64,000 bases of DNA from Eledone cirrhosa (Eukaryota). The notes beneath the pieces are model-generated. The model made no database searches. It was not told the origin of the DNA and was given only the letters and a program-made list of their open reading frames with translations. Shown here piece after piece: positions 35,420 to 62,208 of this stretch. Made by a program: the position numbers and the translations under genes. The stretch is from positions 19,840,001 to 19,904,000 of the forward strand of contig OZ024743.1 of the NCBI GenBank assembly GCA_964016885.1, read 5' to 3'. Each line of letters starts with the position of its first letter. Position 1 is the first letter of the stretch.

Positions 35420-38400
35420 TATATTAACAAATGGAAACTATATTTATAAAACCATATTTATTTCATTATACATATTTCAAGGACACCAAGTTAAATTATG
35501 GTGGGCTTTCATCAGATAAAATATAATATAATATAGATCAGTTTTATAAATAAATATTGACATACCCTTAAAGAATGCGACCATTTCTGTTGGAAGCTCC
35601 CGGATAGTGGGGTTATAAATTTATTTATACTATTAAGCAAATTAGTGTCGGATATTTTTAAAACACAGTAGATTTAAAACAAGCCGTTGGAGTAAGGAGA
35701 AAGGGAAAGAGAAAAAAGAAAAAAGAAAAAAGAGACAAATCAAGCTTTAAGAGGAAAATAAGAAAACAAGAAAAAGATAAAGAGAAAGAGAAGAAAAAAG
35801 AAAAGAGAAAAGAGAAACAGAAACAGAAAGCCCTAAGTGATAGGTTGTTGTATTAGCATAACTTTTAAGATGAAGTGAAAAAATAAATATTTTTTGGATG
35901 AGTAAAGTAAATAACCGTGAATGGAAAATAATCGTGAATGGAAAATGAATTTTAACCATGTTTAAATATGATTAAATGTTTAGTTTATCAATTAAATTAT
36001 CCATCAAATTATTGAGATCTATACATTAAAAGTTGAGATCTATATATTATTAAAAAATCTATATATTATTAAAACCCATATATTATTAAAAGAATATATC
36101 CATATATATACATACGCAGACATACATACACATACATATAAATAAATATATATATATACCTACACATACCATACACATAGATAAAGGACTTTTTATGTAT
36201 AAGATATAGGAATTTTCTTAAACTTATATATTGTTCTGAGAAACCAGAGAAAAAAACCCGGAGAAAAAATGTCTATGTAATATCAAAAGAGCGTGAAGGA
36301 AATTAAGTTATTTACTTATATTATTTACTTATATTAAATGTTATAAATGTCAAGATAACAAAGGAAATTTAAGATTATAGAAACCTTATGTTATAATACA
36401 AACCTTATACTATAAATTTTTATATTATAAATGTTATTTTTACTAAATCCACATGTTATGTAGTTGTGACTGTTATTATATAAGTTTGTTTATCACGAAC
36501 CTTAAGGAAACCCTTATAACCTAGCGCATTTGAATTGTATGCATATATATATATAGACACAACTCCCACATATATACACATAGACATAGATACACATACA
36601 GGTAGATATGCATCATATATATATATATATATATATATAAATATATATATATATACATACATATATATAGAGAGAGATATAAATATACAGTATATAGAAT
36701 AATTGAAGTACATAATATATAAAAATAAGATAAAAATGAATTATATTACGATTTGGAAATATATTGTTACAATTATAAACAATATAACTTTAAAGCAATA
36801 TAATTTAAAAAAATTACAGAATATTTTAAGATATAATTTTAAAAGAAGAATATGTCTAAAAAAATTCAGTATAAAATTTAAATTTTTTTATACAATATGT
36901 TTAACTTAATTTTATAACTATATGGGAAATTTTCAAAGAAAAAGGAAGAGAAACTTTCAAAAGAGAAACTTTCAAAAATAGGAGAAACTTTTCAAAGAAA
37001 ATATTTTCCCCTTTTAAGAGCTTTCAGTATGTTTATCTAGAAAGATTTTCTAGGAAATTTTTTTTTTATATTTGAGAGTTTAAGCAGTCAAATGAAGGAA
37101 TCTAATGATTTATCGATAGGTTCAATATATTAATAGAATTAATTATATATTACATTTTAAATTTATATTTAAACGTTGAGTTCAATCTATGTCTGCAGCA
37201 ACTGAAGAGATTGCTTCTTACATTTAGGGAATTTTTTATTTTTAATATAAAGAATATTTCCTCCATACAAAGATCACAATTTTCTGAAGAGGAGTTAAAA
37301 GGAGTTGCTTTTGAAATAATATTCCAAAGTAACGAATATTCAACGTTCTTTAATTTGAGGTCCCATAATAAGCTAGATCGAGAAGTTTTTTGTTTAAATG
37401 CGTAAAAGAGCTTTTATGGTTATTAAAACGAGATTTAAAATCTGTGGAAGTAGATCCTACATAGTTAAATGAATTTAGATTAGTTATTACATTACAATTA
37501 TATACTATATTTTTAGCTAAGCAATTGTTATTTAACGGACAATTAGATTTATTTCTAGTTACATTTATCAAATTGGATATTGCTGGGGTTATTAGTGGTA
37601 TTTTGGTTAGGTTTTAAATTTCTATTATTAATTCTATTAATATTCTGCGCTAAACTTTTGGTGGATGAATAAGTTAATTTTATAGTTTGTCTATTAAAAA
37701 TTGAGTAATATCTATGTGTTCTAGGGAAGCATTTGTCAAGAGCGTTAAAGAATAGGAGTTTTAATATTTAATGAGAAAGGAGGAGCGAACCATAATATAT
37801 TCCTAGTTCTATTTCTTTTTTTGTTTTCCGAATTATTGTAAGGTTTTCTATTATAGTTGTTAAAATTGTTAGGATTATGGTTATTTGTTATATTATTATT
37901 ATCAATGTATTTAATTTTATTTCTATATCCAGCTCTACCTAACGCTTCGTTGTAATAATGTGCTTTATCATCAAATATATTCTTATTAGGTGAAATTCTA
38001 GAAATGCGTTGCTGTACAGAATTCACTATAGTATTTTTAACGGATCTGGGGTGATTAGAGTTAAAATTAACGTAGTTTAGGTTCTCGTTTAGTTTGTGAA
38101 AAGGATAATGAAGACATGTGTTAAGGTTTAATGTTACATCTAGAAAATTAACTATTTTATTGTTATTCTCTATTTCTACTTTTAGATTAAGGTAATTAAA
38201 AAATTGTATAATTTCTTTTCTTTTCCTATTTAATTCACAGTTATTATTTTCGATAAGTAAAAGCATGTCGTCACGATATAAACCTCCGGTCATCTCAAGT
38301 ATTTTTCTATGTAGAGAATTATTTATAAAGAGGCCCATGGGATCATTCTATTCCCTGAGCGGAATAGGATGATCCCATAGTGATATCGAAATTATTGTTT

Positions 38401-39624: not shown

Positions 39625-42350
39625 AAACTGAAAAGGAACTGGTAGCTAAAATAGAAGAGGCACTTAGGAATGGCAGTACAGCTGAAGTGCTAGCGGCGAG
39701 AACGGCACTAGACCAGTTCTTCAACGTGAAACACGAAGGTTGTATTTTCAGAAGTAGAACACGTGCTCTAAGAAACGAGGGAGCCAAAGCTGTTAGCTGG
39801 GCCCGAGTGGCAGAGGCGAACAGTGGCAACAAATCCATAATTCGGTCTTTGTAAGACATGATGGACGCATTATACTTGAATCCAAGCAGATGTGCACGGC
39901 CTTCCAGCAGCATTTTGCACAACTGTTCGGGCAAAGCGATACATCGAGCGAGGTGATGGACTTCAGCTCCTACCTCGACGGCGTACCGAGACTCTCGAGC
40001 ACGGATGCAGAGAGCTGCGAAAGACCGATCACAGCGGGCGAAATAGAAGTTGCCTTAGGCCGCTGTGGGAAACACAAATCACCCGGTTTAGATGGTCTAC
40101 TTTATGAGTTTACATAGGCATGCTAGACTTGTTCTCTGGTGGCCTCGAAGCGGTCTGCTGCAACTGGCAGCAAAAGGGGAGGATTCCCAGTTCTGTAGGC
40201 AGAGGCGTAGTAACCCTGATCAGGAAAGATAAGAACAAGGGGGTGAAATAAGCAATTTCAAGCCCATAACTCTGCTCAACACAGAGTTAAAGATTTTGGC
40301 CAAGCTGTTAACAGCAAGGCTGGCGCTTTTAGTCGAAAATTTGGTAGGGGAAGCCCAAACGTGTGCATTCCCGACCAGGTTCATACACGACAACCTCCAT
40401 CTCATGCGATACATCAATAGAAATGGTAGGGTATAAACCTGGCTTCGTTGGGGCTCTGATCAATTTAGATCAGTCTAAGGCATTTGATAGGGTCGACCAT
40501 CAATACTTGGAATCAGTTCTCAAGGCGGCCAGCTTCGGTCCCGTCTTCAGAGGCTGGATCGATGCCATGCACACCAGCATCTGCTCGACAGTCAAGGTGA
40601 ATGGCTAGCTATCAGAGCCATTCCAAATCATGCGTTCCATCCGTCAGGGATGCCCTCTCTCCTCCATTATGTATGTACTGACACTTGAGCCGTTACTGCG
40701 GAAGTCGGAGCTGTTGCAGGGCATCCCGATCGAACCAGGACTACTGCGGAAAGCAGCGTCGGCCTATGCCGACGACATAACCGTAATGCTGTCGAAAACC
40801 TCGGAAATCGGGGTAATCGGCAACCTATTACAGGAATACGAAACGTTGACAGGAGCAAGATTAAACTCAAACAAGTCTGTCGGTTTGCAACTCGGCACAT
40901 GGAGAGGCAAACCCATGCCTTCCGACAGTGTCGTTGGACGCTGGAAGGACCGGTGAAATTGCTCGGGGTCTGGTTTGGTCCAGACCTCCAGGAGGACAAG
41001 AACTGGAGCGAGGTCACGTCGAAGGTGGTTGCACTCACCGGGAAGTGGGCTGAGTGCAAACTCTCCTTGAAAGGTCGAGCGAAGGTGGCGAACATAGTGT
41101 CCGTCATCTACTACCGCTTGACAGTCGTGCCTTGCCCCCGCGAATACCTTACCAAAATGGAACGCCTACTCTTCAAGTTCCTCTGGAAGAAACAGGCTCC
41201 ATTGGTGAGGAGATCCATCTGCTGTCAACACCCTTCTAACGGCATGCCATGGCTGATGATGCGCAAACAAGCGCTGAGGCTACGCCATCTCCAGGTATTC
41301 CTGACCGGTGAACCGGTGTGGCTGTCGTTTGTGAGACAAGCTCTTCCACAACTCGTCTCACTAACAGAGCTGCAGTCCTGGATCAAACGAAGACTGAAAA
41401 TGGGTGCCTGGCACCTCGAGTGCCTACAGGCGCTCACAGCCCTCTACCAAACGAAAACGGCAATCAGCGGAGACTCCCCTTCGACATTCTATAGGGGATT
41501 AGTGGAGGATAAGTGCGACGACGTTCTCGGGGAAACTCTAGGCGTCGGGAAGGACGAACTGACCAGTCTGTTCGGGAGGAATTTCCGTCCAGGGCCTATG
41601 GATAACTTCCAGAGGTCACTGGCCTGGCAGTGCTACCGAGGAGCTCTAGCAGTTCGAGACAAAATCTACCGGCACGGACGCTCTGGCAGAGATCCTGCCA
41701 AAAGGACCTGTCCAAGATGCGAGCAGGACATCGAAACCGTTCTGCACGCAATTGTTCAGTGCCCAGGAGTGACCGACCTGTGGAATTATGTCGAACAGCT
41801 GCTGTCACGTGTGGGACGCATCAAGTTGTCAGCCGAGTTCATCGTGAGGATCACCCCGCCGCTTTCATTTAAGAACGAAGGAGTGGAGTTTTCCTCTGTA
41901 TGGGGGCTATGGCGAAAGAGGTAATATGGTGGACGAGGTTAAAAGGACTGAGGGCAAACACCTTTCTCTCTGGACAACAACTTATCCCCTTCTTTAAGTA
42001 TCACTTCAGAAGGAAGGTGGGAGTGGAGAGAGAGGTGCTACACCCCAGTAAATTCGCTAAAAGGTGGGTGAATGTAGCAAAAATGGCCCGAGTGAATGGG
42101 CCTTCTCTGTATATAAACCTGTAGGTTGAGGAAGATAAATAGAGGGAAGACAGGTGTTGAGGGTTGTTCTATCCACGGGGTGTAAAACAACTCTGCAGTA
42201 ACGTTCCCCTCTATTGGGGATTTCAATTGTTATTTTATTATATATAGTTTATTGTTATTTATTAATATTAAAGTTATTTTTATGTAAAACCCCCGCCGTC
42301 ACGTCTTGTAATGTCCCATTTTTGTACGCCCCTGTGGCAAATAAAGAAAG
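39625..42350 (+). mobile_element. 5'-truncated L1-group, Tx1-clade LINE (ORF2 pseudogene)
   Basis: KSPGLDGL, PITLLNTELKILAK, DQSKAFDRVDH, QGCPLS, AYADD, LSLKGRAKV, C-terminal CPRC...ETVLH...C. Several frameshifts and stops; ORF ends ~42124; aataaa near 42340. Confidence 0.92.
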
Positions 42351-57780: not shown

Positions 57781-58003
57781 ATGTAGACATCTTCTGATAA
57801 AACCCTAAAAAGAATCTAAATCTATTAAAGATATTCATGGTTTTCTCAATGAACAGACAAATACGTAACATTGACATTTTATCATGTCTATACATAATAT
57901 GTGTATATTCATAAATACATTTACAGTATACAGATATGTATTTATCATTTATTTCGGCTTCGTGCTTTAATCTATATATGCATGTATACAAACTATATGT
58001 ATG

Positions 58004-58059
<56 letters not shown>

Positions 58060-58060
<1 letters not shown>

Positions 58061-58813
58061 GGAAAAAATGAAACGAAATTTCATTTCCCACTCTTAGTAT
58101 GGCTGTTACTTAAATATAAATATGTACACGTACATACATATATGTATACAGACGTACAGTAGTATGTATATATACACACGTGCACACATATATTTGTCAG
58201 TGTTGAACAAACGAGCAACGATAGTTGCTAGACACTACGGCTTAATACGGGATGTTTGTTTACAAACACACCGAGCATTATAATAAATGTTCGGTGAATC
58301 CATACGTACATATATATATGTGTGCATGTGTGTATATATATATATATACATACTACTGTACGTCTGTATACATATATGTATGTACGTGTACATACTTATA
58401 TTTAAGTAACAGCCGTACTAAGAGTGGGAAATGAAATTTCGTTTCATTTTTTCCGATATCGTTTTCGATGCACCCGGCCGATTAACCCACTCGATATGCA
58501 AATTGGGCTACTCAGCCGTTAATATGCATAAGGTAAGTATATACGTTCAACAATCTGGCAGGAAGGTATACGTTGCTGACGATAGCTAATAAGCTTGAAA
58601 CTAGTACAGCGTTCCTTTGTCAGTGTTGAACAAACGAGCAAGGATGGTTGCTAGACACTACGGCTTAATACGGGATGTTTGTTTACAAATACACCGAGCA
58701 TTATAATAAATGTTCGGTGAATCCATACGTACATATATATATGTGTGCATGTGTGTATATATATATACATACTACTGTACGTCTGTATACATATATGTAT
58801 GTGCGTGTACATA

Positions 58814-58820
<7 letters not shown>
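58060..58820 (+). mobile_element. Non-coding 423-bp-unit hammerhead element (1.5 tandem units + 5' inversion)
   Basis: 58193-~58400 repeats at 58616-58820 (period 423). 58060-58192 is an inverted copy of ~58312-58456. Hammerhead at 58570-58612; (TA)n flanks. Confidence 0.8.
58570..58612 (+). ncRNA. Minimal type I hammerhead ribozyme
   Basis: ACGUUG-CUGACGA-U AGCU aaua AGCU U-GAAA-CUAG-UA-CAGCGU. Stem I 6 bp, palindromic ACUAGU stem III, GUA triplet; predicted cut after 58606. Confidence 0.82.
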
Positions 58821-58906
<86 letters not shown>

Positions 58907-61187: not shown

Positions 61188-61210
61188 ATGCAAATAATAA
61201 TAATAATAAT

Positions 61211-62208
61211 AGGTCTTATCAGCATAGAGGACTGTGTTCAGATGGAGAAAAACAACCTATACAAATACGTGACCTATAGTAAGGAGCCAATGCTCAGAAC
61301 TGTACTGAAGGAGGGGAGAGTAGGCCAGGGGATGTCCAAGGAGGAAATAACATCAAGGAGGAAGAGCAGCCTTAAGGGAAAATCCCTTCATAGTACCTTC
61401 TTTGAGAAAACTGAATTTAGAGATCCACAGACATGGAACTGGTTGAGAAGAGGAGACCTCAAAAAGGCTACAGAAGGAATGCTAATGGCTGCGCAGGAGC
61501 AGGCCCTCAAAACGAAGTGGTTGAAGCACCATATTTACAAGGAGGAGGCTAGCCCACTGTGCAGGATCTGTGGAGAGAGAGAGGAGACTGTGGCTCACAT
61601 TGTGTCCGAGTGTAAACACCTAGCCCAGACCCACTATAAGGGCTGGAGACACGATGTGATGGGCAGGGTGATCCACTGGCACCTGTGCAAAGTAAACAAT
61701 TTACCACATTCTGAGAAATGGTATGAGCATAGGCCAGAGGCGGTGATGGAGAACAATCAGGTGAAGGTGCTGTGGGATTTTAGGATACAGACGGACAAAA
61801 AACTGGAACACAATAGACCTGACCTGGTGGTTGTGGACAAAGAAAAAAGATCGTTTCTGATTGTGGATGTGGCCTGCCCTTTCGACACGAGAGTGCAAGA
61901 GAAGGAGAGGGAGAAAATTAACCGATACCAGGACCTAAAGTGGGAGGTGAAAAGGATTTGGAACTGCCATGAAGTCAAAGTGATCCCGATTGTCATAGGC
62001 GCACTGGGGACTATCTCCAAAAGTTTCCAGGGATGGTTAAAGAAAATCGGCCCCTTCACGCTTTTTGGAACGCTTCAAAAGGCATGCTTGCTTGGAACAG
62101 CAAGAACCCTCCGATACGTCCTGAATATCTGAGGCTGCAGGTAGTGGCTTGATATTCATTCCAACGGACTTTCCAGTTAACCAACATCAATGACTGAGAT
62201 TCAAGGAA
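61211..62208 (+). mobile_element. Second, distinct R4/Dong-like RLE retrotransposon 3' fragment
   Basis: GLISIEDCV, AAQEQAL, CRIC..ETVAHIVSEC, RHD, RPDLVV, VDVACP, EKINRYQDL. ORF open to 62132; followed by (AAC)/(AAT)n. Confidence 0.93.

What the first reader, a model, noticed from the sequence alone, without database searches (positions are those of the whole stretch)
58060..58820. 423-nt non-coding self-cleaving element whose copy starts right after its own ribozyme cut site
Seen: a monomer (58193-58615) ending in an intact-core hammerhead (predicted cut after 58606), a second partial copy (58616-58820) running into (TA)n, and an inverted copy of an internal segment at the 5' end. The repeat boundary lies only ~10 nt downstream of the cleavage site, as expected if the template RNA 5' end was ribozyme-generated. 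A splice-donor-like AAGGTAAGT lies ~40 nt upstream of the ribozyme. No meaningful ORF. Known: this combines PLE hallmarks (partial tandem, 5' inversion, dimerising minimal hammerhead) with retrozyme-like size. Inference: a non-autonomous, possibly circular-RNA-forming retroelement. I know of no description in cephalopods but cannot verify novelty.
Basis: partly seen in the sequence, partly recalled or inferred. Interest (0 to 1): 0.8.

Follow-up and report, generated by a model that had tools for sequence, protein, structure and literature searches.

The report
Ribozyme retroelement riding Penelope transposons
This is one of thousands of genomic copies of a 423-base non-coding repeat with a hammerhead-ribozyme motif, likely copied from a predicted circular RNA into TA repeats by the enzyme of a Penelope-like transposon; it is a new family of a known kind (retrozymes), and copies start anywhere along the unit, not specially at the predicted cut site.

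Summary
The anatomy is real: a 423-nt period, a type I hammerhead motif (predicted cut after 58606), a partial second copy, an inverted arm, (TA)n on both sides, no ORF. The headline is not: among 254 arms, 5' starts near the cut site are no more common than chance (12 seen, 12.4 expected) and 185 read through it. What is fixed are two 3' ends about 55 nt apart (258 of 290 ends). Of 102 inverted arm pairs, 74 face outward with one end of each type. This is the Penelope-like element (PLE) 'tail' footprint. The family has at least 6,761 exact hammerhead matches. Units and opposite arms of one insertion share rare variants, and a related family has an 18-of-18 identical two-armed array, as expected from one circular template. 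Verdict: a non-LTR retrozyme, very likely moved by a PLE enzyme; new family of a known kind. Cleavage, transcription and circles are untested, and no autonomous partner was found. Its value is insertion-footprint support for a PLE and rolling-circle model that the papers read propose from co-occurrence and sequence relatedness.

The parts
57994..58056 (.). (TA)n tract, left side of the target
   Evidence: 51 of 64 fixed ends in loci chosen by internal sequence run into TA-rich DNA against 5% window background
58057..58192 (-). Inverted, 5'-truncated arm (unit positions about 131-275, counting from the base after the cut); its outer end is the fixed 'tail' 3' end
   Evidence: same end in 127 of 290 arms; 4,040 exact genome matches to this end plus TA
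58193..58615 (+). One 423-nt period of the direct arm; its start (unit position 10) is this copy's truncation/inversion junction
   Evidence: folds at z = -8.1, 0 of 100 shuffles as stable, partly owing to the TA-rich hairpin
58405..58459 (+). Internal copy of the 'tail' segment lying between the two fixed 3' ends (inferred reverse-transcription start sites); holds a hairpin
   Evidence: same two ends in sister family B and equivalent ends in family F
58530..58538 (+). Splice-donor-like AAGGTAAGT; not conserved, probably not functional
58545..58631 (+). Extended, interrupted helix I that would hold the two ends of a cleaved monomer together
   Evidence: helices 7-9 95-100% paired over 21 units, two pairs changed on both sides
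58570..58612 (+). Type I hammerhead motif; U-U closing helix II; palindromic ACUAGU helix III; predicted cut after 58606
   Evidence: strand-swapped dimer -19.4 against 2 x -6.7 kcal/mol for monomers without helix III; 6,761 exact 27-mer matches, control 0
58616..58820 (+). Second, partial period ending at the fixed short 3' end (unit position about 218-221)
   Evidence: same end in 131 of 290 arms; 1,452 exact matches to one variant of this end plus TA
58821..58880 (.). (TA)n tract, right side of the target

Best explanation
This is a 1.5-unit, two-armed insertion of a multicopy non-coding tandem element, a non-LTR retrozyme, likely copied from a predicted 423-nt circular RNA by the reverse transcriptase/GIY-YIG endonuclease of a Penelope-like element. 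Steps: (1) inferred: a multimeric copy elsewhere is transcribed; two hammerheads pair through ACUAGU and cut, and the monomer is ligated to a circle. (2) Shown: insertions lie in (TA)n and end at two fixed internal positions about 55 nt apart, not at the ribozyme site. (3) Inferred: the PLE enzyme nicks both strands of the TA tract and primes inside the RNA, at one site from each side. (4) Shown: the two arms point outward, pass through the cut site, stop at scattered 5' points and are joined there; inferred: each is a rolling copy of the same template. The window copy has one hammerhead and is probably a dead-end product.
For: Fixed ends: 131 short + 127 tail of 290 non-edge arms; 74 of 102 inverted pairs are short+tail, only 3 are like+like. 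This matches the PLE description of partial tandems, an inverted 5'-truncated copy, a tail on one end and TA bias (10.1101/2021.04.23.441226, passages) and two adjacent internal RT start sites in vitro (PMC11167929). RT+GIY-YIG frames of 938 and 636 aa and an RT frame of 1096 aa found by its GIY-YIG hit exist in this genome, and one PLE family shows its own short and tail ends at TA tracts. One template per insertion: rare variants are shared by tandem neighbours 210 of 1,052 times (12.9 expected), by opposite arms 86 of 501 (6.9 expected), between insertions 160 of 11,862 (180 expected). In related family F one insertion has 18 of 18 full units identical across both arms, 4-24 changes from other arrays, with one short and one tail end in TA. 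Structure kept on this strand: 97.4% of cells paired, 5 of 52 pairs changed on both sides, slid controls 29-41%.
Against: No autonomous partner found: none of 49 GIY-YIG loci examined (of 150 listed; two are the same place) has this sequence as its own end. Helix II is closed by U-U and helix III is not formed in the monomer fold, so cleavage may be weak; 8 of 9 frog retrozyme dimers did not cleave in vitro (10.64898/2026.07.22.740005). In the anole PLE, uncleaved linear RNA is the main substrate and the hammerhead is dispensable. Alternating ABAB arrays and a 4-unit higher-order repeat show that arrays also grow by DNA duplication, which inflates tandem sharing, though not sharing between opposite arms. 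Some arm pairs share no variants. Only 47 of 254 arms hold two or more hammerheads. The tail (about 55 nt) is longer than the 30-40 bp usually cited. The both-sided changes are about five events between related subfamilies; the count of such pairs (5) does not exceed shuffles (266 of 500 reach it). Identical long arrays could be smoothed by assembly.
Confidence: 0.65

Rival explanations
1. PLE-mobilised as above, but the template is an uncleaved linear read-through transcript of a genomic array; long arms come from long transcripts or template jumps, and the hammerhead is passive.
For: Unprocessed RNA is the main substrate of the anole PLE in vitro; U-U closing pair; most arms are short (median 440 nt, 237 of 284 non-edge arms have 0-1 hammerhead); DNA-level array growth exists.
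Against: Rare variants fixed across all units and both arms imply a monomer bottleneck; a 13-unit arm would need a 6-kb transcript with every canonical hammerhead uncut; core, palindrome and long helix I are kept across families at 74% identity and below.
Confidence: 0.25
2. The unit is a solo pseudo-LTR left by 5'-truncated PLE insertions and then expanded locally as a minisatellite, with no RNA life of its own.
For: Suggested for vertebrate retrozymes in 10.64898/2026.07.22.740005; higher-order repeats in long old arrays.
Against: 0 of 75 solo arms continue into PLE coding sequence; inverted arms are themselves multimeric and each insertion ends at fixed sites in a new TA tract; no parent PLE found.
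Confidence: 0.06
3. One reading: the template is a linear RNA whose 5' end was made by the ribozyme, so full-length copies begin at the cut site.
For: This copy's direct arm begins 9-10 nt after the predicted cut; 10 of 254 arms start at positions 1-12.
Against: That is the chance rate (7.1 expected, P 0.18; in 192 arms from loci chosen by 3'-end patterns 6 against 5.4); 185 of 254 arms cross the cut.
Confidence: 0.04

Closest known systems
Metazoan non-LTR retrozymes (PMC7229834; 10.64898/2026.07.22.740005)
   Same: Non-coding tandem units of a few hundred nt, one type I hammerhead per unit, low GC, strongly self-paired, thousands of copies, co-occurring with PLEs; mussel units are 350-390 bp.
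   Different: U-U instead of G-C closing helix II; no RNA data here; fixed PLE-type short/tail ends, outward-facing inverted arms and TA targeting were not described in the passages I read; no sequence link to a PLE pseudo-LTR found, unlike 24 of 57 frog families.
Pseudo-LTRs of EN+ Penelope-like elements (Neptune/Nematis/Poseidon; Craig et al. preprint 10.1101/2021.04.23.441226; PMC4209133; PMC11167929)
   Same: Partial tandems, inverted 5'-truncated arm, tail on one end, TA targets, dimer-type hammerhead with palindromic helix III.
   Different: No RT or endonuclease frame; unit loops on itself after the tail instead of entering an ORF; tail about 55 nt.
Non-autonomous Chlamys PLEs such as MRC1 (passage)
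   Same: [quoted passage not shown]
   Different: Those share 3' sequence with autonomous families, and Naiad/Chlamys are reported without hammerheads; here the hammerhead is present and no shared 3' end was found.
Newt satellite 2 (passages, PMC6155905)
   Same: Dimer-type hammerhead in a tandem repeat with an internally looped extension of helix I.
   Different: No sequence comparison made; different host; dispersed short two-armed insertions dominate here.

Membership tests
non-LTR retrozyme | Tandem units of about 150-450 nt, each with a type I hammerhead | tested here: met
   423-nt period; arrays of 2 to over 20 units; 47 of 254 arms with two or more hammerheads
non-LTR retrozyme | No coding capacity, no LTR | tested here: met
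   longest Met frame 60 aa; ends are short/tail type, not LTRs; PBS and PPT not searched
non-LTR retrozyme | Strongly self-paired, conserved RNA structure | tested here: met
   z -8.1; 97.4% paired, 5 of 52 pairs changed on both sides; few independent events
non-LTR retrozyme | Canonical hammerhead with G10.1-C11.1 | tested here: not met
   U-U in families A and B, C-A in older C; G-C in related E/F. A common feature of hammerheads, not the definition of the group
non-LTR retrozyme | Self-cleavage and accumulation of circular RNA | not testable with these tools
   only indirect genomic signs
non-LTR retrozyme | Target-site duplications when present | tested here: inconclusive
   flanks are TA repeats, so a duplication cannot be told
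PLE-type insertion | Partial tandem with 5' truncation and inverted 5'-truncated arm | tested here: met
   102 inverted pairs among 297 arms; scattered 5' ends
PLE-type insertion | Optional tail on one end (two start sites) | tested here: met
   74 of 102 pairs short+tail; also families B and F
PLE-type insertion | AT-rich/microsatellite target | tested here: met
   51 of 64 against 5% background
autonomous PLE | RT plus GIY-YIG ORF between pseudo-LTRs | tested here: not met
   0 of 75 solo arms lead into a PLE frame; the 5 of 200 loci with PLE-protein hits have them away from the arms, judged by position
non-autonomous PLE derivative | Sequence shared with the pseudo-LTR of an autonomous family | tested here: inconclusive
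   none among 49 of 150 listed GIY-YIG loci, about six families; search incomplete

The most novel reading that the evidence does not exclude
A covalently closed ribozyme-made RNA circle is a direct substrate for the Penelope-type enzyme, which primes twice inside it, once from each strand of a nicked TA tract, and rolls outward-facing arrays. This genome's still-young retrozyme families record that reaction and recruit the enzyme by RNA shape, without sharing a pseudo-LTR sequence with any autonomous element.
Probability: 0.45. Interest if true: 0.65.

Novelty: new member of a known kind. Interest (0 to 1): 0.42.

Why it matters
Which enzyme moves animal retrozymes, and whether the circle is the template, is proposed but not shown in the papers read: PMC7229834 names PLEs a strong candidate and the 2026 preprint adds co-occurrence and sequence relatedness. 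Here the insertion ends carry the PLE signature in thousands of copies, and young sister families (99-100% identical copies) with long identical two-armed arrays give defined start sites and a ready substrate for the existing in vitro PLE assay. It also shows that the ribozyme does not set the 5' end of insertions. The element type itself is known, so the finding is a good test case rather than a new system.

Tried and rejected
Cut-site start: rejected. Splice donor: not conserved; the next AG is only 29 nt on. Coding or endless-ORF circle: rejected, all six frames stop within 62 codons, and unit lengths vary (420-432). miRNA-family Rfam hits are TA-repeat artefacts far below gathering scores. 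Autonomous partner: sought through GIY-YIG hits, a related tail hairpin (which gave another retrozyme family), a degenerate hammerhead pattern (family F) and upstream flanks; not found. Heterodimeric circles as the source of ABAB arrays: considered, but the hybrid units in the array at L056 fit DNA-level unequal exchange. Twin priming of a linear RNA explains at most a minority of inversions (32 of 290 ends are at other places). Expression: no RNA holder listed; contigs of four runs of unknown kind were laid and say nothing on expression; single short contigs in runs of two other organisms resemble the family. Empty-site polymorphism at this locus was not tested. Earlier scan notes: none for this genome. 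Literature searches for a cephalopod retrozyme or non-autonomous PLE listed none; Repbase, Dfam, subscription papers and all supplements (those of PMC7229834, PMC4209133 and the 2026 preprint may list such motifs) were not seen.

Full report
Observation. The window holds one copy of the element: (TA)n 57994-58056, an inverted arm 58057-58192, a direct arm 58193-58820 and (TA)n to 58880. The direct arm repeats with period 423 (58193-58349 / 58616-58772, 97%). A type I hammerhead motif lies at 58570-58612: 6-bp helix I, CUGACGA, a 4-bp helix II closed by U-U, GAAA, the palindrome ACUAGU and a GUA triplet, cut predicted after 58606. Rfam does not find it in 7 kb and matches it weakly, core on core, in 121 nt (HH9, 19.7 bits, gathering 52). 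The 66-nt region alone folds no better than shuffles (z -0.2) and does not form helix III; a strand-swapped dimer scores -19.4 against 2 x -6.7 kcal/mol. The unit folds at z -8.1. No frame exceeds 60 aa from Met. Unit positions below count from 58607.

Family. The genome is 3.0 Gb. All 40 scored of 749 candidates matched at 95-100%. A 27-mer of the hammerhead has 6,761 exact matches, control 0. I analysed 200 loci chosen by the DNA search, by the hammerhead or by 3'-end patterns (those from the pattern searches are among the first listed, on contig C1). After removing overlaps they gave 297 arms; a few segmental duplicates remain, and arms under 85% identity or too short for the seed were dropped. 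Median divergence from the column majority is 2.3% over 194 arms.

The headline fails. For 254 arms with both ends inside the locus and a fixed 3' end, 5' starts cover the whole unit. Positions -5 to +15 hold 12 (12.4 expected from bases at risk); positions 1-12 hold 10 (7.1 expected, P 0.18). In the 192 arms from loci chosen by 3'-end patterns the figures are 8 against 9.3 and 6 against 5.4. 185 of 254 arms cross the cut site. The start at position 10 here is a chance truncation. The donor-like word is GTA in 158 of 162 units of this subfamily but GAA in 47 of 51 units of the subfamily with an 8-nt insertion and in family B.

What is fixed. Of 290 non-edge 3' ends, 131 lie at about 218-221, 127 at about 272-276 and 32 elsewhere. 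In loci chosen without regard to ends, 64 of 79 arms stop at these two sites and 51 of the 64 run into TA-rich DNA, against 5% background. End-plus-TA patterns have 4,040 and 1,452 exact matches. Of 102 inverted pairs joined at their 5' ends, 74 are short+tail, 2 short+short, 1 tail+tail, 19 include another end and 6 touch a locus edge. The window copy is a short+tail pair. Craig et al. describe exactly this for PLEs: partial tandems, an inverted 5'-truncated copy, a tail on one end, TA bias (passages). Frangieh et al. show in vitro that a PLE enzyme cuts both strands and starts inside the RNA at two adjacent sites that bound the tail, and that hammerhead cleavage is not needed for insertion (PMC11167929, passages and second part of the main text).

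Not a PLE end. Of 75 solo arms, 2 have a PLE-protein hit in the upstream kilobase: one on the other strand, one beyond an inverted tail and TA. Upstream sequence shared between loci belongs to other repeats ending in TA. PLEs are abundant: 150 scored GIY-YIG hits, frames of 938, 1096, 636 and 477 aa with RT and, in three, GIY-YIG by Pfam. Three carry the cysteine linker that one search gives for Neptune/Nematis; no tree was built. None of 49 loci examined has our sequence as its own end; relatives seen there are separate insertions into TA tracts.

Template. With the TA-rich part masked, rare variants (under 5%) are shared by tandem neighbours 210 of 1,052 times (12.9 expected), by opposite arms 86 of 501 (6.9) and between insertions 160 of 11,862 (180); mismatch is 3.3%, 3.3% and 5.0%. 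Related families have the same layout. B is 74% identical to the window unit, has copies 99-100% alike and the same two ends. E/F has 465-468-nt units, a canonical G-C closing pair, the same palindrome and 5,438 pattern matches; it aligns to our unit at score 169 against -64 +/- 15 for shuffles. One F insertion has 6 + 12 full units, all identical, 4-24 changes from other arrays, a short end left and a tail end right; another has 17 units within one substitution. One small template read many times in both directions explains this best. Against: ABAB and four-unit patterns in older A arrays show DNA-level duplication, some arm pairs share nothing, E-family and older arrays are not uniform, and assembly smoothing is not excluded. 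Structure across 21 units: 97.4% of cells paired, 28 cells in 5 of 52 pairs changed on both sides (10.2 cells in shuffles; the pair count itself is not above shuffles), slid controls 29-41%; a U-G to G-U swap in helix I fits this strand as the RNA. These are few independent events.

Mechanism. Shown: non-coding tandem unit, conserved hammerhead motif, two fixed internal 3' ends, scattered 5' ends, outward-facing arms, TA targets, shared variants within insertions. Inferred: transcription, dimer cleavage, ligation, rolling copying by a PLE enzyme. Confidence about 0.9 that it is a PLE-mobilised non-autonomous element, 0.65 for the full model with a circle.

Comparison and novelty. It meets the testable features of non-LTR retrozymes (PMC7229834, passages; PMC7761336, passages) apart from the U-U pair. 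The 2026 preprint (abstract to discussion read) already argues that animal retrozymes are non-autonomous PLE derivatives, sampling no mollusc; its text has no 'tail' and no inverted-arm analysis. PMC4209133 (passages) and PMC6155905 (passages) cover dimer hammerheads. PMC10886601 (passages) was irrelevant. Seven searches listed no paper on this family or on retrozyme insertion ends; supplements, Repbase and Dfam were not seen. Verdict: new family of a known kind; interest 0.42, mainly for the footprint evidence and as a test system.

Noticed in passing
L321/L322 (G000:C1 about 30.83-30.84 Mb); L326/L327; Family F retrozyme, 465-468 nt, canonical hammerhead, 5,438 pattern matches, very young; two-armed arrays of about 20 near-identical units. 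A better experimental subject than the window's family.
   Followed up: partly
L161:7050-9001; L333: Family B, 74% identical to the window unit, dispersed copies 99-100% alike, same short and tail ends; probably recently active.
   Followed up: partly
3' flanks of GIY-YIG hits, e.g. L152, L159, L124, L145: PLE hammerhead-like motifs reading UUGAnAA instead of CUGAnGA with an ACCGGU palindrome, in 18 of 49 flanks; consistent with a U3-A8 swap of the C3-G8 pair (known as a natural variant, recalled).
   Followed up: partly
L154, L155, L158, L166, L150: One PLE family has a hammerhead with the same U-U closing pair and a 6-nt palindrome as our element, but no other sequence match; a candidate partner on weak grounds.
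   Followed up: partly
L329 (C1 49.58 Mb), L054-L058, L330/L331: Alternating ABAB units, one of each pair with a weakened hammerhead helix, and a 38-unit array with four-unit periodicity; satellite-like growth from a retrozyme seed, though heterodimeric templates are not excluded for L329.
   Followed up: partly
window 58496-58503: ATGCAAAT, an octamer-like word (name recalled), kept in most A, B and E units but changed in some F units; possible promoter element, untested.
   Followed up: no
8 of 87 inverted pairs have the same 5' breakpoint (within 1 nt) on both arms, 7 with overlapping junctions, suggesting fold-back at internal hairpins.
   Followed up: no
window 40689-41924 and 61188-62132 (+): Open frames with Pfam zf-RVT matches (one above, one below cut-off), probably LINE fragments.
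   Followed up: no
window near 35515 (-): A second hammerhead-shaped motif of an unrelated sequence found by my descriptor.
   Followed up: no
L031, L072, L238, L161:6620-7060: Another short repeat with a long internal palindrome that ends in TA tracts and often neighbours these insertions.
   Followed up: no
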